In this document: piece by piece, positions 1,320 through 43,983 of the stretch
Numbering within the stretch: the stretch's first letter is position 1
How the letters are laid out: every line of letters starts with the position of its first letter
Assembly (NCBI GenBank): GCA_029256705.1
Contig: JAQSXK010000007.1
Span: 4,606 to 68,605, forward strand
Direction of reading: 5' to 3'
DNA from: Clostridia bacterium
GTDB lineage: Bacteria > Bacillota > Clostridia > TANB77 > CAG-465
Length of the DNA: 64,000 bases
Notes under the pieces: model-generated
Database searches by the model: none
What the model was told of the DNA's origin: nothing
What the model saw: the letters and a program-made list of their open reading frames with translations, nothing else
Translations under genes and position numbers: made by a program

Positions 1320-1565
1320 TACGCTAACCATAAGATTATAAAATCTTATGGCTAGCAACCTTATTCTCGGGTATAAAAAATACTTTAGAGAAACCAAGGG
1401 CAGTTATACTATCCAACATGTATTAAATATTAATTAAAATAATCAACAATAAATTAAACAATCAGGACTTGTATAACAAAGCTATATATTAACTATATAT
1501 ATAGACACTAATATTATGGTTTGTTTTTTGAAACATATACATATAATATAAAAAGAAAGGTGATA
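1320..1565 (+). promoter_or_regulatory. structured 5' leader / possible cis-regulatory RNA upstream of the PP-loop/MurD-like operon
   Basis: A perfect 10-bp stem CCATAAGATT-ATAAA-AATCTTATGG (1329-1352), extended by flanking GCTAACC/GGCTAGC, has no U-tract. A second hairpin pairs CCTTATTCTC (1363) with GAGAAACCAAGG (1390). A promoter-like TTGAAA is near 1536 and the RBS AGGTGA lies before the TTG start at 1570. Confidence 0.3.
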
Positions 1566-1569
1566 TTTT

Positions 1570-2946
1570 TTGAAATATAATAATGTAAAATATAATGAGT
1601 TAAGAGAAAAATATAAAGAATTTAATTATGATAATTATTCATATGTTTTCGTAGATAATAAATTAGAAATTACATTTGAGTTTTCACAATATGATGGTAT
1701 AAATTTTAAACCAAAATGGACAATACCGATAAGTGAAGATGAATATATAAAAAAGGATAGATCGTTCCTAGATAAAATAATATTTAATCTAGGCTTAGTT
1801 GAGGTTATAAGTTATTGGAAAGCTACATGTTCACCAATTTTAAATGTAAAATGTTCGACTTTAAATGAACATCAAAAGAAATGGTGGAAAAAATTATATT
1901 TTAATGGGTTAGGCGAATTTTTTTATACAAATCATATTTCCGTAAATGAAAGTGATTTTATTGATATTATATGCAAGGATGAATTAGAACAAAATAAAAT
2001 TATTTTAAAAGATGATTTTGAGGGATGTTTAATCCCAATAGGTGGAGGAAAAGATTCAATAGTAACATTAGAAACTTTAAATAAATCAAAACAAAAGTTA
2101 GATAATTTGTGTTATATTGTAAATCCAAGGGGAGCAACTATAGAAGCAGCAAAAATTTCAGGTTATATAGATAAAACTGTTTCTGTAAATAGAACTATAG
2201 ATAAAAAGTTATTAGATTTAAACAATAATGGATTTCTTAATGGACACACTCCTTTTTCTGCAATTTTAGCATTTTCATCATATTTAACAGCATATTTATA
2301 TAACAAGAAATTTATAACATTATCCAATGAATCTAGTGCTAATGAATCTAACGTTGAAGGAACTAATGTTAATCATCAATATTCTAAAAGTATAGAATTT
2401 GAAAATGATTTTAGGGAATATGCACAAATTTATCTGTCTGATAAAATACAATATTTCAGTTTGCTAAGACCACTTAATGAATTTAAGATTGTTCAAATAT
2501 TTTGTCAGTATAATAAGTATTTCAAAGTTTTCAAAAGTTGTAATGTTGGATCAAAAGAAGACATATGGTGCAATAATTGCCCTAAATGTTTATATGTGTA
2601 TATAATGTTATCTGCATTTTTATCTTCAGAAGAAATAAATGTTATTTTTGAAACTAATATGTTTGATAACATTGAACTTGCAAATATTTTAGATGGTTTG
2701 GTAAGTAGCAAATTTGATAAACCGTTTGAATGTGTTGGTACAAAAGAAGAAATAAATTATGCATTGTATATAAAAATTAATAAGTTAAAAGAAAATAAGA
2801 AGGAATTGCCACCATTATTATCATATTATATGAATAACTATTCTGATATATATGATAATATATTAAGGAATAATGTTAAAAATAATGTAGAAAATTATTA
2901 TGACTTGGAAAACAATATTCCAATTGAATTTAAGGGGTTAATATAG
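1570..2946 (+). CDS. PP-loop (adenine-nucleotide alpha-hydrolase-like) ATPase family protein, function unknown
   Basis: 458 aa with a TTG start after an AGGTGA RBS. The motif 'IPIGGGKDS' matches the SGGxDS PP-loop, and a CxxCxxC-like Cys cluster (CNNCPKC) is present. The stop overlaps/abuts the start of the murD-like gene (ATATAG ATG). Confidence 0.45.
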   Translation: MKYNNVKYNELREKYKEFNYDNYSYVFVDNKLEITFEFSQYDGINFKPKWTIPISEDEYIKKDRSFLDKIIFNLGLVEVISYWKATCSPILNVKCSTLNEHQKKWWKKLYFNGLGEFFYTNHISVNESDFIDIICKDELEQNKIILKDDFEGCLIPIGGGKDSIVTLETLNKSKQKLDNLCYIVNPRGATIEAAKISGYIDKTVSVNRTIDKKLLDLNNNGFLNGHTPFSAILAFSSYLTAYLYNKKFITLSNESSANESNVEGTNVNHQYSKSIEFENDFREYAQIYLSDKIQYFSLLRPLNEFKIVQIFCQYNKYFKVFKSCNVGSKEDIWCNNCPKCLYVYIMLSAFLSSEEINVIFETNMFDNIELANILDGLVSSKFDKPFECVGTKEEINYALYIKINKLKENKKELPPLLSYYMNNYSDIYDNILRNNVKNNVENYYDLENNIPIEFKGLI

Positions 2947-4314
2947 ATGGTAGAGCAAATGATTGATAATATATATAGTTTTTTAGATGGAAAAAAAATA
3001 TTGATATTAGGGTATAGTAGAGAAGGAAAATCTACATATAATTTTATAAGAAATAGATTGAAAAACATTAAAATATCTATATTAGATCATAATATTATTG
3101 ATAAAATTGATGATGATTATGTTGAAGTTTTTTGTGATAACGAATATGAAGATTATTTCAAAAAATTTGATATAATAATTAAAAGTCCAGGAGTACCTAT
3201 AAAAAGAGAACTGTATAATAAATATAAAGAAAAGATAGTGTCTCAAACTAGTTTATTTTTAGAGTATTCAAAAAATATAATAGTGGGTATAACTGGTACG
3301 AAAGGTAAAAGTACAACTTCATCATTAATACATCACATATTTAAAAATTGTAATTTAAATAGTATGTTGGTGGGTAATATAGGAACTCCTATTTTATCTC
3401 AAATTAATGATATAAGTGATGATACTATAATTGTATTTGAAATGTCATCTCATCAATTACAATATATTAACAAATCTCCTAAAATTTCAGTATTACTTAA
3501 TATTTACGAAGAACATTTAGATTACTATGAAACTTTTGAAGAATATATATTTTCTAAAGAGAATATATATAGATTTCAAAATGAAAATGATTTGGTAATA
3601 TATAATTCATCATTAGATACTATAAATGTTATTAATATATTAAAAATAGGGCAGAGAAGGTTACCTATATATATAAATAATGAAAATATAAAGGAAAATA
3701 ATTATGTTAATATAAAAGAAGATATAATATTATTTAAAACGGTCGAAAAAGAGTTATCAATTGATGTAGCAGATATAAATACTAACTTAAAAGGTGCACA
3801 TAATTTATATAATATAGTAATAGCTATATCTGTAGCTAATGAGATGAAATTAGAAATTAAAGATATTCTAAAGGCAATATCTTCTTTTGAAGGATTAGAA
3901 CATAGAATGGAATATGTCGGAAAGTTTAACGATATCAACTATTATAACGATTCTATCGCAACTATTCCGGAAGCTGCTATATGTGCTGTTAAAAGTCTTG
4001 TAAAAGTAGATACAATAATCATTGGGGGAAAAGACAGGGGAGTAAACTATTGCGAATTGGTAAACTTTTTGAATAAAAGCGAGATTGGTAAAGTATTGCT
4101 TATATCTGAAAGTGGAAAAAGAATATATGATATGTTAGAAAAAAATAATAATAAATATATATATGCCGAAAATTTGGAGAATGCAATTGAACTAGCAAAA
4201 TTAAATACTCCTAAAAATGGAATTTGTCTGTTATCACCAGCAGCAGCAAGCTATGGGTATTACAAAAACTTTGAAGAAAGAGGTAACAAATTCAAAGAAT
4301 TAGTTAAGAAATAA
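2947..4314 (+). CDS. Mur ligase family protein, MurD-like paralogue (UDP-N-acetylmuramoyl-L-alanine--glutamate ligase-like)
   Basis: 455 aa. It has an N-terminal Rossmann segment 'ILILGYSREGKST', the Mur ligase P-loop 'GITGTKGKSTT' and a MurD-type 'YYNDSIATIPEAA' (NDSKAT-like) motif. It lies outside any dcw cluster, so it is a second murD-like copy. Confidence 0.7.
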   Translation: MVEQMIDNIYSFLDGKKILILGYSREGKSTYNFIRNRLKNIKISILDHNIIDKIDDDYVEVFCDNEYEDYFKKFDIIIKSPGVPIKRELYNKYKEKIVSQTSLFLEYSKNIIVGITGTKGKSTTSSLIHHIFKNCNLNSMLVGNIGTPILSQINDISDDTIIVFEMSSHQLQYINKSPKISVLLNIYEEHLDYYETFEEYIFSKENIYRFQNENDLVIYNSSLDTINVINILKIGQRRLPIYINNENIKENNYVNIKEDIILFKTVEKELSIDVADINTNLKGAHNLYNIVIAISVANEMKLEIKDILKAISSFEGLEHRMEYVGKFNDINYYNDSIATIPEAAICAVKSLVKVDTIIIGGKDRGVNYCELVNFLNKSEIGKVLLISESGKRIYDMLEKNNNKYIYAENLENAIELAKLNTPKNGICLLSPAAASYGYYKNFEERGNKFKELVKK

Positions 4315-4325
4315 ATAATAAAGCA

Positions 4326-4357
4326 GAGGGAGAACGATTATTCAATCGTTCTCCCTC
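4326..4357. terminator. rho-independent terminator (bidirectional hairpin) after the murD-like gene
   Basis: GAGGGAGAACGATT-loop-AATCGTTCTCCCTC perfect 14-bp stem. Confidence 0.6.
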
Positions 4358-4643
4358 CATCTATATTAAATACTAAATTTTGGAAAATCCAAAATTTAGT
4401 ATATTTCAAAACGGTTTTTCTTATATTATTATTTCAATTTATTTTTTAAGTAAGAAAAAACTTCAGTAAACTAATATCTTTAAACACTAGGATCAGTCTT
4501 ATTATTTTTTAAATAATGTGTTATTTTAAATCTCGTATTATCAAACTTCCAAATTTGGGAGTATTAAAAAATTTTAATGAAGCTATTATATCACCAATGG
4601 AAGAAAATGTCAATAGTTTTAGACAATAAAGCAATAGAATATA

Positions 4644-4677
4644 AAAAAGGACGATTAAATTCTAATCGTCCCTTTTT
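4644..4677. terminator. rho-independent terminator for the minus-strand gene 4697-5218 (A/T tracts on both sides)
   Basis: AAAAAAGGACGATTA-AATTC-TAATCGTCCCTTTTT. Confidence 0.6.
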
Positions 4678-4696: not shown

Positions 4697-5218
4697 TTAA
4701 ATTTTAAAAAAATCAAAGTTCAAGAGTGTAGGGAAAGGATTTGATGCATATTCGGATTTGATTCTCGAAGTAAATTCGAGAGGTTCTTTTGTTAAAACAC
4801 ATCTTTCTCCTTTTAAATTGGTTTTTACAACCAGCTCGGTATCGATATTCTTACACCAATCGGCTAAGCCTGCAATATCATCTGTTTCAAATGTTGCTAT
4901 GATTGAATAATCATCAAGAACTAATGAAACAGTTTTTTCAATATACTGTGCAGTCATTCCAGCCATGTTTTGAATAATAAGTTTTTTTCCGGCCACAATG
5001 GCAGCGTCTACGTTTTCCTCCATAACACATATCAGGATTCTATCGTCAGACTTATACCAGTATACTTCAGCACCGATTTCTTCAGAAAGTTTAGCGCAGA
5101 TGCATGAATCAACCAGATCAAAATCTTCAAAGATTACAAATACATCAGTACACCGACCTTGGAACTTTTCATGCTTAACGCTTGAATCAACCAAAAAATG
5201 TTTTGCGACAATACCCAT
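4697..5218 (-). CDS. hypothetical protein (locally elevated GC)
   Basis: 173-aa ORF with coherent coding statistics and visibly higher GC than its flanks (e.g. CCGGCCACAATGGCAGCGTCTACG). It is bracketed by terminators and I recognise no family. Confidence 0.5.
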   Translation of the reverse strand: MGIVAKHFLVDSSVKHEKFQGRCTDVFVIFEDFDLVDSCICAKLSEEIGAEVYWYKSDDRILICVMEENVDAAIVAGKKLIIQNMAGMTAQYIEKTVSLVLDDYSIIATFETDDIAGLADWCKNIDTELVVKTNLKGERCVLTKEPLEFTSRIKSEYASNPFPTLLNFDFFKI

Positions 5219-16718: not shown

Positions 16719-17249
16719 TTGAAAAAATTAAGAAAAATGTTAGGCAAATATAATGATGAACATATGATTCAACTTATGACTCTGATTTCAAGTCAAAGTA
16801 AAGAAACTATTGCTAATTGGTGTATTGATTATGCTGAAAGAGAAATTCTACCAATATACTTAAAGTATTATCCAAATGATTATAGACCTAAAATGGCTTT
16901 AGACGCTTCTCGTGATTGGTTAAAAGGATTAAAGAAACTTCCAGAAGTTAAAAATATAATCTTAAACGAATGTCATCAGGCAGCGCGAGAAGCAGAGAAT
17001 AATCCAGCAGCTCAAGCAGCGGCAAGAACTCTTGGACAAGCGGCAGCTTGTTTTCATACTCCAACACATTCAATGGGATTAGCATTCTATGGTGGAGCAG
17101 CCGTTGCTTATGATAGATTAGGACTTGAAGCTAGTAATGGGGAATATGAAGAGGTAGCCTATCAGGAAGTTATTAAAATGACTAATGAGTTAAAGAAAGT
17201 TGCAGTAGAAAATGAACCAAATAAGGCAAAATTAAATTGGCACTGTTAA
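16719..17249 (+). CDS. hypothetical protein (Ala-rich, locally GC-rich; possibly immunity-type)
   Basis: 176 aa with an 'AQAAARTLGQAAACFHTPTHSMGLAFYGGAAVAY' core. GC is clearly above the flanks; a terminator lies at 17271-17305. Confidence 0.45.
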   Translation: MKKLRKMLGKYNDEHMIQLMTLISSQSKETIANWCIDYAEREILPIYLKYYPNDYRPKMALDASRDWLKGLKKLPEVKNIILNECHQAAREAENNPAAQAAARTLGQAAACFHTPTHSMGLAFYGGAAVAYDRLGLEASNGEYEEVAYQEVIKMTNELKKVAVENEPNKAKLNWHC

Positions 17250-17400: not shown

Positions 17401-17601
17401 ATGAAGAATAGGAAAATGAAAATAGCACGATTAGAACTAGATATGAAACAAGAAGATCTAGCAACTATTGTAGGAGTTACACGCCAAACAATTGGTATGA
17501 TTGAGTCTGGAAATTATAATCCTACTTTAAATCTTTGTATTGCAATCTGCAAGGCACTTGGAAAAACTTTGGATGAATTATTTTGGGAGGTAGAGAAATG
17601 A
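17401..17601 (+). CDS. XRE-family HTH transcriptional regulator
   Basis: 66 aa with the classic Cro/C1 HTH 'QEDLATIVGVTRQTIGMIESG'. Confidence 0.85.
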   Translation: MKNRKMKIARLELDMKQEDLATIVGVTRQTIGMIESGNYNPTLNLCIAICKALGKTLDELFWEVEK

Positions 17602-18086
17602 AAAAACAAATTATACAAGACGAAAGAGTAGTAGCACAAAAACAAAAAATATTAAGTGAATCATATGTCATTTTAATGATAATTCTTATTATATCTATAT
17701 TTATACAGCAAAATTTATTAAATGCACCTTTTAAGCAATATGCAGTTGAATTTATATGTTTTTTTGGAATATCAATTTACATTTTAATACGTAATTTAAC
17801 ACTTGGAATTGATATGTTTGGGGAGAAGAAAAAGGCAAAAATAATAGCTCTTAGAAATAGTATAATAGCTGGAATTGCTGTAACCGTTGTAACAGGTATT
17901 TCAAACTATATTGAATACGCTGAAAAATATGAAGGAAAATTAATTTTTTTTGTAATTTCACTATTGATTACATTTGTTAGTGCAGTTATTTGCACATTTG
18001 TTGTTTTTGCATTGATAGGTTTTATTAATAATATGAAAATAAATCAACTTGAAAAAAAATTAGATGAAGAAGAAAAAAGGAATTAA
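17598..18086 (+). CDS. membrane protein partner of the XRE regulator
   Basis: Overlaps the XRE stop; three TM helices; GGGAGG RBS. Confidence 0.55.
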   Translation: MKKQIIQDERVVAQKQKILSESYVILMIILIISIFIQQNLLNAPFKQYAVEFICFFGISIYILIRNLTLGIDMFGEKKKAKIIALRNSIIAGIAVTVVTGISNYIEYAEKYEGKLIFFVISLLITFVSAVICTFVVFALIGFINNMKINQLEKKLDEEEKRN

Positions 18087-37388: not shown

Positions 37389-38096
37389 ATGCAAGTTATA
37401 ATTGACGAAAGAGTTAATACTGAAATTAAAAAATATTTTTTAGAGTTAGGTTATGAAATAATTAAAATAAAAAAACACGATAATATATATAGTGAGATAT
37501 CTAGTCATACAGATATATTTTGTTTGAAATTAGGTAATACCGTTATATATGAAAAAGATGCTGTTTCAGATATGTTATATAATAAATATGATTATTTTCA
37601 TGGGGATAATGTGGAAAACATTTACCCTAAAACAGCTGCATATAACGTTTGTGTTATAGATAACTTTGTAATACATAATTTTAAAATTACGGATAAAAAA
37701 ATATTAGAAAAGTTAAACGAAATGAAATATACCTTTATTGACGTTAAACAAGGTTATTCAAGGTGTAGTATACTTCCACTTGATAATAGATGTTGTATAA
37801 CTTCAGATAAAGGAATATATAATAAATTAATTCAAAATGATTTTGATGTGTTATATGTTGATTCGTCTGAACTAGATATTAAGTTGTTTAATGAAGATGG
37901 AACATATTCAAATATGTCTGGTTTTATTGGTGGATGTAGTTGTGTTTTGAATGATACGGTTATATTTTTTGGAGATGTAGACAAGCTTAAATGTAAAGAA
38001 AAATTAATAAATTATATAAATTCAAGGGGATATAAAATAAAAGATTTTAAGAAAATGGACGTTATAGATTATGGTTCATGTATATTTTTAGATTGA
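37389..38096 (+). CDS. hypothetical protein
   Basis: 235 aa with 'SHTD' and 'GGCSC' motifs; no confident family. Confidence 0.45.
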   Translation: MQVIIDERVNTEIKKYFLELGYEIIKIKKHDNIYSEISSHTDIFCLKLGNTVIYEKDAVSDMLYNKYDYFHGDNVENIYPKTAAYNVCVIDNFVIHNFKITDKKILEKLNEMKYTFIDVKQGYSRCSILPLDNRCCITSDKGIYNKLIQNDFDVLYVDSSELDIKLFNEDGTYSNMSGFIGGCSCVLNDTVIFFGDVDKLKCKEKLINYINSRGYKIKDFKKMDVIDYGSCIFLD

Positions 38097-41198: not shown

Positions 41199-42800
41199 AT
41201 GATAACTACAATTTTAGAAATTAGTATTATAATATTAGGACTTGTGTTATTACATGTGAACTTAGATAAATTTTTACATATACTACAACAATCTTTTTAC
41301 CACAATTCAGAATTAATATCTGTACTGAAAAAAACGGATGCATTAAAAATTGGTACATTTGAAATAATTCTTACAGCTTTATCATTAATAAGTATTGCAA
41401 CATTTAAGGATGTGATGTATGTATTATGGATTATTGCTGCAATACTTGCAATAAACTTTGCTATAATGAATAAACCAAAAGTAAAGAAAAAGTTTGTTAT
41501 TACAACAAGAGTAAAAATAACTTATGTTGCTGTATATCTGTTAATACTTTTATTTGTTATATTACCATATATATTAATGAAAACAGACATTGTAACAACT
41601 TCTATTTTTTCTGCATTACTAATATTATTATCACTGAGCAAATATTTAGCTATTTGTATAAGTATGATTGCAAATGTAATAATTATGCCAATACTTAATC
41701 TAATTAATTTAAGATATATTAATGAAGCAAAAAAGATAATAAGTTCAAATAAAAAGTTAAAAATTATTGGTATTACTGGTAGTTATGGTAAGACTTCCAC
41801 TAAGAATATTATATACCAAATTTTATCTCAAAAATTCTCTGCTGTAATGACTCCTAAAAGTTATAATACAACACTTGGTGTTGTAAAAAGTATAAGAGAA
41901 AGTATTAAGCCATATACAGAAGTATTTGTTTGTGAGATGGGTGCAGCAAGACTTGGTGAAATTAAAGAAATATGTGAAATAGCACCTCCAGATTATTCTG
42001 TTATAACCTCTATTGGACCACAACATTTGAGTACATTTAAATCTATGGAAAATATTGTTCAAGGTAAATTTGAAATTGTTAATTATGCTAAAGAAGATGC
42101 ATTGGCTATTTTAAATACAGATAACGAATATATAAGAAAAAATATGGATAAACAAATAAATGGTAAAAAGGTTATACAGTATAGTATATTAGATAAAAAA
42201 CAAAAGTACTATGTAGAAGATATACATATGAATGACACAGGTAGTACTTTTACAGTTGTTTGCGAGGATAAAAAAATAGAGTTAGAAACAAAGCTACTTG
42301 GTAAGCACAATATATATAATATAGTTTGCGCGGTGGCAATTTCTAAAGAACTTGGTATGACAGATGTTGAAATACAAAAGAGTATTAAGAGATTAAAACC
42401 AGTGGAACATAGATTACAACTTAAGTCAATGAATGGAATACTTGCTTTAGATGATGCTTTTAATTCTAATCCTGAAGGTTCTAAGATGGCAATAGAATGC
42501 TTAGCAATGTTTGAAGATAAATATAAAGTATTGGTTACTCCAGGAATGATAGAACTTGGTGAACAAGAATATGAATTAAATAAAAAATTAGGTGAGTATG
42601 CGACTAAATGTGATTATGTATTTTTGGTTGGAGATAAAACAACTAAGGCAATAAAGGATGGAATGGATGAGCAAAAATATACTAATTATGAAACTGTAAA
42701 AGATGTATATGAAGCTTTTGAAAAATTAACAAAAATAAAAGAAAACCATCCTAATTTAATTGCTTTATTTGAAAATGACTTGCCGGATAGTTATTCTTAA
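41199..42800 (+). CDS. murF: UDP-N-acetylmuramoyl-tripeptide--D-alanyl-D-alanine ligase (MurF) with an N-terminal ~170-aa membrane extension
   Basis: Mur ligase P-loop 'GITGSYGKTSTKN'; lies upstream of ddl. Confidence 0.75.
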   Translation: MITTILEISIIILGLVLLHVNLDKFLHILQQSFYHNSELISVLKKTDALKIGTFEIILTALSLISIATFKDVMYVLWIIAAILAINFAIMNKPKVKKKFVITTRVKITYVAVYLLILLFVILPYILMKTDIVTTSIFSALLILLSLSKYLAICISMIANVIIMPILNLINLRYINEAKKIISSNKKLKIIGITGSYGKTSTKNIIYQILSQKFSAVMTPKSYNTTLGVVKSIRESIKPYTEVFVCEMGAARLGEIKEICEIAPPDYSVITSIGPQHLSTFKSMENIVQGKFEIVNYAKEDALAILNTDNEYIRKNMDKQINGKKVIQYSILDKKQKYYVEDIHMNDTGSTFTVVCEDKKIELETKLLGKHNIYNIVCAVAISKELGMTDVEIQKSIKRLKPVEHRLQLKSMNGILALDDAFNSNPEGSKMAIECLAMFEDKYKVLVTPGMIELGEQEYELNKKLGEYATKCDYVFLVGDKTTKAIKDGMDEQKYTNYETVKDVYEAFEKLTKIKENHPNLIALFENDLPDSYS

Positions 42801-42819
42801 AATGAAAGGAAGTAGTGTT

Positions 42820-43983
42820 ATGAAAACAGTAGTAGGAGTATTTTTTGGAGGAAAAACAGTAGAACATGAGGTATCTATATTATCCGCTTTACAGACAATA
42901 TATGCAATAGATAAAGAGATATACGAAGTCGTTCCAATATATATAACAAAAAATAATGAATTCTATTATTCAGAAAAATTATTAGATATAAATATATATA
43001 AAGATATTGAGAAATTAAAAAAAGAATGTAATCAAATATATTTTACACATAAAAATGGCCAAATGATAGTTAATTCTCTAGATGGAGTATTTAAAAAAGA
43101 ATTAATAAAAATTGATATTGCATTTCCTGTAGTTCACGGACTAAATGTAGAAGATGGTACACTTCAAGGATTTTTAGAGATGTATAATATCCCTTATGTT
43201 GGATGTGATATTACTTCTTCAGCTGTTGGAATGAATAAAATAATATTTAAGAAAGTTTTGGTAGCTTCAGACATACCAGTAATAGACTATTATGAAGTAC
43301 ATTTAGAAGATTTTGAAGAAAATGAAGAAGAAGTTTTAAATAATATAATTAATAAACTTTCTCTTCCAATTATATTGAAACCAGCTAATTTGGGATCAAG
43401 CGTTGGAATAAAAATAGTTAGAAATAAAGAGGAATTTTCTGAAGCAATGAATTTTGTTTTTGAATTTACAGATAAAATATTAGTTGAAAAGTGTATTGTA
43501 AATTTAAAAGAAATTAACTGTTCTGTATTAGGTAATTTTGAATCACAAGAGGTTTCAGAATTAGAAGAACCTGTAAAGGCAGATGAGATTTTAAGTTTTA
43601 AAGACAAGTATATGTCAGCTGGCGGTGGTAAGGGTTCTAAATCTGGTGGAATGGCTTCTTTAACAAGAAAAATACCAGCTGAAATTAGTTCTGAGATGAA
43701 AATTGAAATAGAAGAATTATCTAAAAAGGTATTTAAAATTTTAGATTGTGAGGGTGTTTCAAGAATAGATTATATAATAGATAATGATACGAATAAAGTA
43801 TATGTAAATGAAATAAATACTATTCCAGGTTCACTTGCTTTTTATCTATGGGAAGCAAAAGGAGTAAGTTTTGATATTTTATGTGATAAATTAATAAAAC
43901 TTGCAATTAAAAGAAGAGATAAAAGGTCAAATATAATATATTCAAATGATGTTAACTTACTTAGTATGCATTCAAAGAAATAA
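42820..43983 (+). CDS. ddl: D-alanine--D-alanine ligase
   Basis: 'VGVFFGGKTVEHEVSILSA' and the ATP-grasp region; AAAGGAAG RBS. Confidence 0.9.
   Translation: MKTVVGVFFGGKTVEHEVSILSALQTIYAIDKEIYEVVPIYITKNNEFYYSEKLLDINIYKDIEKLKKECNQIYFTHKNGQMIVNSLDGVFKKELIKIDIAFPVVHGLNVEDGTLQGFLEMYNIPYVGCDITSSAVGMNKIIFKKVLVASDIPVIDYYEVHLEDFEENEEEVLNNIINKLSLPIILKPANLGSSVGIKIVRNKEEFSEAMNFVFEFTDKILVEKCIVNLKEINCSVLGNFESQEVSELEEPVKADEILSFKDKYMSAGGGKGSKSGGMASLTRKIPAEISSEMKIEIEELSKKVFKILDCEGVSRIDYIIDNDTNKVYVNEINTIPGSLAFYLWEAKGVSFDILCDKLIKLAIKRRDKRSNIIYSNDVNLLSMHSKK

What the first reader, a model, noticed from the sequence alone, without database searches (positions are those of the whole stretch)
1570..4314. Second MurD-like ligase translationally coupled to a PP-loop ATPase-like gene - candidate alternative peptidoglycan-precursor modification pathway
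The MurD-like protein has every hallmark of a MurD (Rossmann N-domain, GITGTKGKSTT, NDS-type motif), but murF-ddl lie elsewhere in the window, so this is a paralogue. It is fused by a stop/start overlap to a 458-aa protein with an SGGxDS-type PP-loop (IPIGGGKDS) and a CxxCxxC cluster. A MurD paralogue paired with an ATP-dependent partner recalls the MurD2/MurL route (L-Glu addition, then ATP-dependent epimerisation) and the MurT/GatD logic, but the partner here belongs to neither known family.
Basis: partly seen in the sequence, partly recalled or inferred. Interest (0 to 1): 0.65.

Follow-up and report, generated by a model that had tools for sequence, protein, structure and literature searches.

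The report
MurL epimerase plus L-glutamate ligase operon
This two-gene operon in a spore-forming Clostridia genome is a new example of a cell-wall route already described in Xanthomonas, in which L-glutamate is attached first (MurD2) and then flipped to the D-form by an ATP-consuming epimerase (MurL); the same pair turns up in hundreds of gut Clostridia and Bacteroidales species, far more widely than the reviews I could read report.

Summary
Its key interpretive claim is wrong: the 458-aa partner is not an orphan family.

**The partner is MurL.** It matches NCBIfam MurL (E 4e-67) and Pfam MurL_N plus MurL_epimerase_C. It is 32% identical to the annotated Xanthomonas sacchari MurL. It keeps 70 of the 105 residues invariant in a 22-member set of Clostridial homologues.

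**The ligase is MurD2-type.**
- It has Glu189 and Arg364 at the two positions whose reversal converts Xanthomonas MurD2 into a D-Glu ligase.
- It has Ile337 where every canonical MurD examined (123 of 123) has the Lys of NDSK.
- It groups with MurD2 in a tree.

**The pairing is conserved.**
- The order murL then murD is the same as in Xanthomonas.
- The pair is adjacent in 78 of 78 testable genomes.
- The two are fused into one protein in 40 of the 150 best family representatives.

**Mechanism.** MurL's core resembles PP-loop ATP pyrophosphatases and carries a QueC-like Cys4 motif. This fits the published ATP-to-AMP chemistry.

**Not testable here:** whether the genome lacks murI and a second murD.

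**Verdict:** a new member of a known kind, ordinary in mechanism. What is notable is how widespread the pair is: at least 596 species genomes, mostly gut Clostridia, with some Bacteroidales.

The parts
1322..1357 (.). Hairpin terminator after recR. It marks the upstream boundary of the operon.
   Evidence: 16-bp stem followed by a T-run. recR ends at 1313.
1489..1517 (+). Weak candidate sigma-70 promoter (TTAACT-17-TATTAT) in the 256-nt leader.
   Evidence: Consensus scan, 9 of 12 matches. Promoter-like sites are not enriched over shuffles, so this is only a candidate.
1556..1563 (+). Shine-Dalgarno AAAGGTGA for murL.
   Evidence: Read from the sequence, 6 nt before the TTG at 1570.
1570..2946 (+). 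[quoted passage not shown]
   Evidence: NF041275 E 4.4e-67, covering 5-391 of 447. Pfam MurL_N plus MurL_epimerase_C. 32% identity and E 9e-54 to X. sacchari murL. 70 of 105 invariant residues shared.
2041..2058 (+). PP-loop variant GGGKDS (residues 158-163). Invariant in the family, including Xanthomonas.
   Evidence: It aligns to the SGGKDS PP-loop of TtuA. The fold hits are all PP-loop enzymes.
2539..2589 (+). Cys4 motif C324-x9-C334-x2-C337-x2-C340: a probable metal (Zn) site, QueC-like.
   Evidence: All four Cys are invariant, including in Xanthomonas. hhalign puts the motif in register with the E. coli QueC motif C-x8-C-x2-C-x2-C, E 0.016. The loop at 326-328 has low pLDDT.
2719..2739 (+). 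KPFECVG motif (residues 384-390) with the universally conserved Cys388, a candidate catalytic residue.
   Evidence: Invariant in the 22 Clostridial sequences and in X. sacchari MurL. A catalytic role is inferred only.
2932..2937 (+). Shine-Dalgarno AAGGGG for murD2, inside the 3' end of murL.
   Evidence: The TAG stop (2944-2946) abuts the ATG at 2947.
2947..4314 (+). [quoted passage not shown]
   Evidence: TIGR01087 345.8 bits. MurD2 signature residues. Groups with X. sacchari MurD2 in a neighbour-joining tree.
3511..3513 (+). Glu189, at the position of E. coli MurD Asp182 and X. oryzae MurD2 Glu197.
   Evidence: Glu in 70 of 77 MurL-linked MurDs and in 0 of 120 controls.
3955..3957 (+). Ile337, at the position of E. 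coli MurD Lys319 (NDSK becomes NDSI).
   Evidence: Ile in 76 of 76 MurL-linked MurDs and in X. sacchari MurD2. Lys in 120 of 120 controls and in 3 PDB MurDs. The E. coli K319T mutant accepts L-Glu (PMC8788868).
4036..4038 (+). Arg364, at the position of E. coli MurD Lys348 and X. oryzae MurD2 Arg358.
   Evidence: Arg in 76 of 77 MurL-linked MurDs. In controls, Lys in 118 of 120 and Arg in none.
4326..4357 (.). Strong bidirectional hairpin terminator 12 nt after the murD2 stop. It marks the downstream boundary of the operon.
   Evidence: 14-16 bp stem with 7 GC pairs.

Best explanation
This is a bicistronic murL-murD2 operon, the Clostridial version of the alternative D-glutamate installation route first found in Xanthomonas oryzae.

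**Proposed steps**
1. MurD2 (2947-4314) uses ATP to ligate L-glutamate, not D-glutamate, onto UDP-MurNAc-L-Ala.
2. [quoted passage not shown]
3. MurL's PP-loop domain adenylates the alpha-carboxylate of the terminal Glu (ATP to AMP plus PPi). This acidifies the alpha-proton.
4. [quoted passage not shown]

The net effect is ordinary peptidoglycan made without free D-Glu, so no glutamate racemase is needed. Translational coupling, and outright fusion in many relatives, keeps the two activities stoichiometric.

**Shown here:** homology of both proteins, the specificity-determining residues of MurD2, conserved adjacency and fusion, and the PP-loop-like fold and motif of MurL.

**Inferred:** the enzymatic activities, taken from the characterised Xanthomonas, Micromonospora and Salinispora enzymes. 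Adenylation of the alpha-carboxylate is the published hypothesis, now supported by the PP-loop assignment. Absence of murI in this genome is also inferred.
For: **MurL identity**
- NF041275 at E 4.4e-67.
- Pfam MurL_N and MurL_epimerase_C on the exact protein.
- 32% identity over 328 aa to PGAP-annotated murL of X. sacchari.
- 70 of 105 Clostridial-invariant residues are identical in Xanthomonas MurL. These include GGGKDS, NGH, SNE, NHQxSK, RP, four Cys and KPFECVG.

**MurD2 identity**
- Glu189, Arg364 and Ile337 sit at E. coli positions 182, 348 and 319.
- Published mutagenesis: the E197D/R358K double mutant turns MurD2 into a D-Glu ligase, and E. coli K319T gains L-Glu use (PMC8788868).
- MurL-linked MurDs have Glu in 70 of 77, Arg in 76 of 77 and Ile in 76 of 76.
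- The 120 control MurDs have Asp or Asn, Lys (118 of 120) and Lys (120 of 120) at the same positions.
- Two sampled controls sit in classical dcw clusters with no murL.
- In a neighbour-joining tree the MurL-linked MurDs form a clade (bootstrap 0.935), and the clade plus X. sacchari MurD2 has bootstrap 0.795.

**Linkage**
- Gene order is the same as in Xanthomonas.
- 78 of 78 testable loci from different species have murD immediately downstream, while the flanks are not conserved.
- 40 of the 150 best family representatives are MurL-MurD fusions.
- Terminators bracket the pair.

**Mechanism**
- AF2 model with pLDDT 86.7.
- The Foldseek PDB hits assigned high homology probability (0.8-0.99) are PP-loop ATP pyrophosphatases: NadE, LarE, argininosuccinate synthase and TtuA.
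- The family profile hits the TtuA PP-loop.
- Published work reports that MurL consumes ATP and forms AMP (PMC8788868, PMC5808125).
Against: - No enzymology on any Firmicute member.
- The NF041275 score (226 bits) is far below that model's clade-specific equivalog cutoff of 700.
- The ligase is only 22% identical to X. sacchari MurD2, and it scores higher against canonical Streptococcus and Thermotoga MurD.
- The Pro433 position of MurD2 is Ala here.
- 7 of 77 MurL-linked MurDs have Asp rather than Glu at position 182.
- The control MurDs come from other phyla. No canonical Clostridial MurD was compared.
- Absence of murI, of D-amino-acid aminotransferase and of a second murD in the source genome could not be tested. 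Only 64 kb were examined.
- The structural match to PP-loop enzymes is weak numerically (E 7e-3 to 5e-2, TM 0.2-0.4).
- MurL-like genes also occur without a MurD neighbour, on Pseudonocardia plasmids. Family membership alone therefore does not fix function.
Confidence: 0.85

Rival explanations
1. Redundant paralogue pair. The genome also has a housekeeping murD and murI, and this operon is a back-up or condition-specific route (for example during sporulation or D-Glu limitation).
For: - It cannot be excluded, because only 64 kb of the genome was available.
- The window holds many sporulation genes: sleB, ypeB, sipL, yunB, spoVAC and spoVAD.
- The operon is not in a dcw cluster.
Against: - In the characterised organisms MurD2 is the only MurD and murI is absent (PMC8788868).
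- This is the only MurD-like ORF in the window.
- No MurI-motif ORF was found in the window or in about 1.3 Mb of related flanks.
- In L067, mraY is followed by secDF with no murD, and the pair lies 6 kb downstream.
- At least 596 species keep the pair, which is more typical of an essential gene than of an accessory one.
Confidence: 0.12
2. The partner is not an epimerase here but a PP-loop amidating or other modifying enzyme. For example, it could convert the Glu alpha-carboxylate to iso-glutamine at the nucleotide-precursor stage, a MurT/GatD-like outcome. The ligase would then be a normal D-Glu MurD.
For: - PP-loop enzymes typically adenylate a carboxylate and then transfer ammonia (NadE, QueC, asparagine-synthetase-like enzymes), and these are the fold hits.
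- Many Gram-positive bacteria amidate D-iGlu.
- MurL-like proteins exist outside the MurD context.
Against: - The ligase carries the L-Glu signature Ile337, Glu189 and Arg364, which was never seen in the 123 canonical MurDs.
- 70 of 105 invariant residues are shared with a MurL family whose members were shown to be epimerases (PMC8788868).
- No glutaminase partner lies in the operon.
- The same pair occurs in Bacteroidales and Xanthomonas.
- The MurT model scores only 18 bits against a cutoff of 800.
Confidence: 0.03

Closest known systems
MurL / MurD2 of Xanthomonas oryzae (XOO_1319 / XOO_1320), with orthologues in Micromonospora and Salinispora (Feng et al. 2017, 2019; reviewed in PMC8788868)
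   Same: - Both proteins are homologous.
- Gene order is the same (murL then murD2) and the genes are tightly coupled.
- MurL motifs match: GGGKDS, the four Cys and KPFECVG.
- The MurD2 specificity residues Glu, Arg and Ile are the same.
   Different: - The host is a low-GC (about 25%) spore-forming Clostridia MAG. This is outside the taxa listed in the reviews (some Gamma- and Alphaproteobacteria, and rare actinomycetes).
- Identity is only 32% for MurL and 22% for MurD2.
- Position 433 is Ala, not Pro, and position 435 is Tyr, not Phe.
- The spacing from the first Cys to the CxxCxxC is 9 residues here and 14 in Xanthomonas.
- No biochemistry exists for this clade.
PP-loop ATP pyrophosphatases (adenine nucleotide alpha-hydrolase fold): QueC, NadE, LarE, TtuA, argininosuccinate synthase
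   Same: - A glycine-rich xGGxDS loop follows the first strand of a Rossmann-like domain.
- The chemistry is ATP to AMP.
- A QueC-like C-x8/9-C-x2-C-x2-C motif lies C-terminal to the nucleotide-binding domain.
   Different: - The first Ser of SGGxDS is Gly.
- There is an extra N-terminal domain of about 130 aa and a C-terminal helical domain.
- The adenylate is resolved by epimerisation and hydrolysis, not by transfer of ammonia or sulfur.
- The similarity is at superfamily level only (E about 1e-2).
Canonical MurD plus glutamate racemase MurI
   Same: [quoted passage not shown] The Mur-ligase fold, P-loop, and His and carbamyl-Lys region are shared.
   Different: - Stereo-inversion happens after ligation, not before it.
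- One extra ATP is spent.
- NDSK becomes NDSI, Asp182 becomes Glu and Lys348 becomes Arg.
- The gene lies outside the dcw cluster.
MurT / GatD lipid II isoglutaminyl synthase
   Same: A Mur-ligase-family protein is paired with a second enzyme that acts on the stem-peptide glutamate.
   Different: - MurT carries a DUF1727 domain and GatD is a glutaminase. Neither is present here.
- The MurT model scores 18 bits against a cutoff of 800.
- MurT/GatD acts on lipid II and amidates. It does not epimerise.

Membership tests
[quoted passage not shown] | Sequence homology to characterised MurL across the core (Pfam MurL_N plus MurL_epimerase_C; NCBIfam NF041275) | tested here: met
   NF041275 E 4.4e-67, covering 5-391 of 447. 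PF26299 and PF26298 on record for this exact protein. BLASTP 32% over 328 aa, E 9e-54, against X. sacchari murL.
[quoted passage not shown] | Score above the NCBIfam equivalog cutoff of NF041275 (700 bits) | tested here: not met
   226.5 bits. The model is named MurL_Xanthmoales and is tuned to that order, so failing it excludes the Xanthomonadales equivalog, not the family.
[quoted passage not shown] | Conservation of family-invariant motifs (GGGKDS, NGH, SNE, NHQxSK, four Cys, KPFECVG) | tested here: met
   70 of 105 residues invariant in 22 Clostridial members are identical in X. sacchari MurL, including all the listed motifs.
[quoted passage not shown] | Co-oriented MurD2 gene immediately downstream | tested here: met
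   Zero-nt spacer in the window. Same order in X. sacchari. 78 of 78 testable loci. 40 of 150 representatives are fused.
[quoted passage not shown] | ATP/Mg2+-dependent unidirectional L-to-D epimerisation with AMP formation | not testable with these tools
   This needs an enzyme assay. It is known only for the Xanthomonas, Micromonospora and Salinispora enzymes (PMC8788868).
MurL / MurD2 pathway | Genome lacks glutamate racemase (murI) and D-amino-acid aminotransferase | not testable with these tools
   Only the 64-kb window was available. No MurI motifs were found in it or in the flanks of 80 loci, and no racemase or class-IV aminotransferase Pfam hit appeared among the 52 window ORFs scanned.
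[quoted passage not shown] | MurD-type Mur ligase architecture | tested here: met
   TIGR01087 345.8 bits, above the 212 cutoff. Mur_ligase_M and Mur_ligase_C domains present. Xanthomonas MurD2 is itself annotated as murD by the same models.
[quoted passage not shown] | Glu at E. coli Asp182 (Xo Glu197) and Arg at E. coli Lys348 (Xo Arg358), the pair that sets L-Glu specificity | tested here: met
   Glu189 and Arg364. None of 120 controls has Glu or Arg at these positions.
[quoted passage not shown] | Loss of the Lys of NDSK (E. coli Lys319; the K319T mutant accepts L-Glu) | tested here: met
   Ile337. Ile in 76 of 76 MurL-linked MurDs and in X. sacchari MurD2. Lys in 123 of 123 canonical MurDs.
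[quoted passage not shown] | Pro433 and Phe435 of X. oryzae MurD2 | tested here: not met
   Ala434 and Tyr436. The published P433A and F435L mutants keep L-Glu specificity (PMC8788868), so these residues are not decisive.
[quoted passage not shown] | Phylogenetic grouping with characterised-type MurD2 rather than canonical MurD | tested here: met
   Neighbour-joining tree of 69 sequences. The linked clade has bootstrap 0.935. The linked clade plus X. sacchari MurD2 has bootstrap 0.795. Support is moderate.
[quoted passage not shown] | Preference for L-Glu over D-Glu in vitro | not testable with these tools
   An enzyme assay is required.
PP-loop ATP pyrophosphatase superfamily | SGGxDS-type loop in a Rossmann-like alpha/beta domain | tested here: inconclusive
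QueC-like zinc site | C-x8-C-x2-C-x2-C metal-binding motif after the PP-loop domain | tested here: inconclusive
   hhalign aligns the motif in register with E. coli QueC 168-216, E 0.016 but probability only 2.9%. Metal binding was not tested.
MurT / GatD | MurT (Mur ligase plus DUF1727) with a GatD glutaminase partner | tested here: not met
   The MurT model scores 18.2 bits against a cutoff of 800. No glutaminase lies in the operon.

The most novel reading that the evidence does not exclude
The MurD2/MurL route may not be a curiosity of a few proteobacterial and actinomycete genera, as the reviews I could read say. It could be the standard, and possibly the sole, way of putting D-Glu into peptidoglycan in a large share of gut and rumen Clostridia and in some Bacteroidales and Erysipelotrichaceae. 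The supporting counts are at least 596 GTDB species genomes and 3,366 50%-identity clusters. The pair is often a single fused MurL-MurD2 enzyme, and MurL would be a QueC-like PP-loop metalloenzyme. If so, MurD2/MurL inhibitors would not be narrow-spectrum anti-Xanthomonas or anti-Stenotrophomonas agents, because they would also hit major commensals.
Probability: 0.5. Interest if true: 0.5.

Novelty: new member of a known kind. Interest (0 to 1): 0.3.

Why it matters
- **Annotation.** The ligase is auto-annotated everywhere as a D-glutamate ligase, and the partner appears in GenBank as 'hypothetical protein'. Recognising the pair corrects the annotation and any metabolic model built on it, because no free D-Glu pool or murI is needed.
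- **Distribution.** The pair is present in hundreds of gut and rumen Clostridia and in some Bacteroidales. This contradicts the narrow distribution on which the 'pathway-specific, narrow-spectrum antibiotic target' argument rests (PMC8788868).
- **Mechanism.** The PP-loop and QueC-like assignment gives a concrete structural frame for MurL, which the reviews describe as lacking known domains. It also points to testable residues: GGGKDS, the Cys4 motif and Cys388.
- **Classifier.** NDSI versus NDSK is a simple one-residue marker separating MurD2 from MurD.

Tried and rejected
- **PDB sequence search with MurL:** no hit at E up to 1. No solved MurL structure was found.
- **Local Pfam copy:** it does not list the MurL families and gave only a weak DUF6395 hit. 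The family names came from precomputed hits.
- **Rfam:** nothing in the leader or the downstream spacer, at either gathering or E up to 1 thresholds. No riboswitch explanation for the 256-nt leader.
- **Promoter scan:** no enrichment over shuffles. The promoter remains unassigned.
- **MurI motif scan of the window and 80 loci:** none found. This is a weak test and says nothing about the rest of the genome.
- **Literature searches** for MurL in Clostridia or Bacteroidales, or for a MurL structure or PP-loop assignment: nothing found in the held library.
- **Chance adjacency:** considered and rejected on the basis.
- **MurT/GatD:** considered and rejected on the basis.
Full report
**1. What is in the sequence**

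The window is low-GC (about 25%) and has positive GC skew almost throughout. At the flagged coordinates there are two abutting + strand ORFs.
- ORF A, 1570-2946, 458 aa. It has a TTG start with an AAAGGTGA ribosome-binding site 6 nt upstream.
- ORF B, 2947-4314, 455 aa.
- The TAG stop of A (2944-2946) is followed directly by the ATG of B. AAGGGG lies 9 nt upstream of that ATG.

So the two genes abut with no spacer.

Hairpin terminators sit just after recR (1322-1357) and 12 nt after the stop of ORF B (4326-4357). The pair is therefore its own bicistronic unit. It lies downstream of dnaX-ybaB-recR and upstream of a two-component system (ORFs; domains), tatD, sleB, ypeB, sipL and yunB.

- IPIGGGKDS at residues 155-163.
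- CNNCPKC at residues 334-340.
- GITGTKGKSTT at residues 114-124.
- NDSIAT at residues 334-339.

The exact ORF A protein is in GenBank as 'MAG: hypothetical protein K0R72_1003 [Clostridia bacterium]'.

**2. ORF A is a MurL**

- ORF A hits NCBIfam NF041275 (MurL_Xanthmoales, UDP-N-acetyl-alpha-D-muramoyl-L-alanyl-L-glutamate epimerase) at E 4.4e-67 over model positions 5-391 of 447. The score of 226 bits is below that order-specific equivalog cutoff of 700.
- Precomputed Pfam hits on this exact protein are PF26299 MurL_N and PF26298 MurL_epimerase_C. The local Pfam copy lacks these models and returned only a weak DUF6395 hit.
- A tblastn search of the plasmid collection found a Xanthomonas sacchari record with PGAP-annotated murL followed by murD. 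ORF A is 32% identical to that MurL over 328 residues (E 9e-54).
- Of the 105 residues invariant among 22 diverse Clostridial homologues, 70 are identical in the Xanthomonas protein. These include GGGKDS, NGH, SNE, NHQxSK, FE, RP, Cys324, Cys334, Cys337, Cys340 and KPFECVG.

**3. ORF B is a MurD2-type ligase**

ORF B passes the murD equivalog model (345.8 bits, cutoff 212). Xanthomonas MurD2 is also annotated as murD, so that model does not separate the two kinds.

The review of the Dairi group's work (PMC8788868) reports three relevant results:
- X. oryzae MurD2 differs from E. coli MurD at Asp182 (Glu197 in MurD2), Lys348 (Arg358), Ala414 (Pro433) and Leu416 (Phe435).
- The E197D/R358K double mutant switches MurD2 completely to D-Glu.
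- E. coli K319T gains L-Glu use.

I verified the E. coli numbering on the PDB alignment. ORF B has Glu189, Arg364, Ala434 and Tyr436 at those positions, and Ile337 at position 319. X. sacchari MurD2 has Glu, Arg, Pro, Phe and Ile in the same alignment positions.

The table compares the 77 MurL-linked MurDs with a control set. The control set is 120 MurDs retrieved with Thermotoga maritima MurD, plus the E. coli, Streptococcus agalactiae and T. maritima structures.

| E. coli position | MurL-linked MurDs | 120 retrieved controls | Three PDB MurDs (E. coli / S. agalactiae / T. maritima) |
|---|---|---|---|
| 182 | Glu 70, Asp 7 | Asp 100, Asn 20 | Asp / Thr / Asp |
| 348 | Arg in 76 of 77 | Lys 118, Thr 2 | Lys / Arg / Lys |
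| 319 | Ile in 76 of 76 | Lys in 120 of 120 | Lys in all three |

- Two controls looked up in context lie in classical pbp-murE-mraY-murD-ftsW-murG-murC clusters with no murL.
- In a neighbour-joining tree of 69 sequences, the MurL-linked MurDs including ORF B form a clade (bootstrap 0.935). That clade plus X. sacchari MurD2 is separated from all controls (bootstrap 0.795).

Caveats:
- Overall identity to Xanthomonas MurD2 is only 22%.
- The controls are from other phyla.
- Canonical streptococcal MurD also has Arg at position 348.

**4. The two genes are a conserved module**

- A scan of one genome per GTDB species, using two MurL motifs, found at least 596 genomes encoding a relative.
- The best 80 are mostly Clostridia: Lachnospiraceae, Oscillospiraceae, Ruminiclostridium and Ruminococcus. 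They include the cultured Fumia xinanensis, Mordavella massiliensis and Pseudobutyrivibrio xylanivorans.
- The set also contains an Erysipelotrichaceae MAG and several Bacteroidales or Alistipes genomes, one of them a complete 3.9-Mb chromosome.
- In 78 of the 80 loci a MurD-like ORF follows MurL immediately on the same strand. The other two loci end at a contig edge.
- Nothing else in the flanks is conserved.
- An exhaustive profile search found 3,366 clusters at 50% identity (1,533 at E up to 1e-30).
- 40 of the 150 best representatives are fusions carrying both parts: 36 in the order MurL-MurD and 4 in the reverse order.
- One of the 80 genome loci (L021) also has a single fused ORF.

**5. 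How MurL probably works**

- An AlphaFold2 model built on the 22-sequence alignment is confident (mean pLDDT 86.7, pTM 0.89).
- Foldseek against the PDB gives no strong hit. The hits assigned high homology probability (0.8-0.99) are PP-loop ATP pyrophosphatases: NAD synthetase, LarE, TtuA and argininosuccinate synthase. Carbapenam synthetase also appears, at probability 0.21-0.66 (E 7e-3 to 7e-2).
- The family profile picks out the PP-loop of TtuA (vGGGKDS against vSGGKDS; E 0.027).
- hhalign places the Cys324-x9-Cys-x2-Cys-x2-Cys motif in register with the C-x8-C-x2-C-x2-C motif of E. coli QueC (E 0.016 but probability only 2.9%, so weak). From memory, that motif is the zinc site of QueC.

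PP-loop enzymes adenylate a substrate oxygen and release PPi. This fits the published finding that MurL needs one ATP and forms AMP, and the published hypothesis that the Glu alpha-carboxylate is adenylated before inversion and hydrolysis (PMC8788868, PMC5808125). Both reviews state that MurL 'lacks known conserved domains'.

Which residues abstract and return the alpha-proton is unknown. Cys388, His226 and Lys273 are universally conserved and are candidates by inference only.

**6. What could not be shown**

The defining physiological feature of the pathway is absence of murI and of D-amino-acid aminotransferase, with MurD2 as the only MurD. This needs the whole genome.
- In the 64-kb window ORF B is the only MurD. 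The only other Mur ligase is murF, next to ddl.
- No racemase or class-IV aminotransferase was found among the 52 window ORFs scanned with Pfam.
- No MurI motifs occur in the window or in the flanks of the 80 loci.
- In one locus (L067), mraY is followed by secDF rather than murD, and the pair lies 6 kb downstream. This is anecdotal.

The 'second MurD / paralogue' reading is therefore neither supported nor excluded. MurL-like genes without a MurD neighbour exist on Pseudonocardia plasmids, so the family is not confined to this context.

**7. Comparison and verdict**

This is the known MurD2/MurL alternative route for installing D-Glu. It is seen here in a sporulating Clostridia MAG, with the same gene order, the same motifs and the same specificity residues as in Xanthomonas. 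It is a new member of a known kind, not a new pathway. [quoted passage not shown]

Three points go beyond the papers I could read:
- **Breadth.** The distribution covers hundreds of gut and rumen Firmicutes and some Bacteroidales. The reviews list a handful of proteobacterial and actinomycete genera.
- **Fusions.** Natural MurL-MurD2 fusions are frequent.
- **Fold and marker.** MurL has a PP-loop and QueC-like assignment, and NDSI versus NDSK separates MurD2 from MurD.

The held library lacks most subscription-journal papers, so some of this may already be published. Pfam already names the family.

Confidence that the pair functions as MurL/MurD2 is 0.85. Interest is 0.3.

Noticed in passing
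window 4324-4613, minus strand: A perfect sigma-70 consensus promoter (TTGACA-17-TATAAT, with a TG extension) at 4613 to 4585 points toward the bidirectional terminator at 4359-4324. The unit is about 230 nt. It has no ORF longer than 41 aa and no Rfam match. It could be a small RNA antisense-adjacent to the 3' end of the operon.
   Followed up: partly
window 4697-5218, minus strand: A 173-aa ORF convergent with murD2. It has no Pfam hit and no homologue in the flanks of 80 related loci. It has its own terminator-like hairpin at 4643-4677.
   Followed up: partly
L021 9863-12550; proteins P0246, P0251, P0252, P0254, P0277 and others: Natural single-chain MurL-MurD fusions. 40 of the 150 best 50%-identity representatives of the family carry both parts: 36 as MurL-MurD and 4 as MurD-MurL. 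Some may be gene-calling or assembly artefacts.
   Followed up: partly
L087 5764-7164 (Pseudonocardia alni plasmid pPaSha1, NZ_CP052772.1); also NZ_CP010991.1 and NZ_CP011869.1: Stand-alone MurL-like genes annotated 'hypothetical protein' on mobilizable actinomycete plasmids. They are 25-29% identical to ORF A and have no MurD neighbour. The family therefore has members in another, unknown context.
   Followed up: partly
L067 596-12599 (Erysipelotrichaceae MAG): The order pbp2B-mraY is followed by secDF rather than murD-ftsW-murG. The murL-murD2 pair lies about 6 kb downstream. This is consistent with MurD2 being the only MurD there, but it is a single case.
   Followed up: partly
window 41199-43983: The murF ORF as listed is 533 aa, about 80 aa longer than usual, and overlaps the 407-aa ddl ORF by 41 nt. 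The true start codons are probably further downstream. They were not verified.
   Followed up: no
L081 (NZ_CP010410.1, Xanthomonas sacchari, 508 kb): This record is labelled 'plasmid' but carries essential-looking chromosomal genes: murL-murD, aspartate kinase/diaminopimelate decarboxylase, and ssb. It looks like a chromosome fragment or chromid rather than a plasmid.
   Followed up: no
window 37389-38096 and 17583-18086: Two conserved proteins of unknown function score strongly: DUF6873 (E 1e-55) next to pcrA/uvrD, and DUF6773 (E 4e-43). An Imm5-like immunity protein lies at 16719-17249.
   Followed up: no
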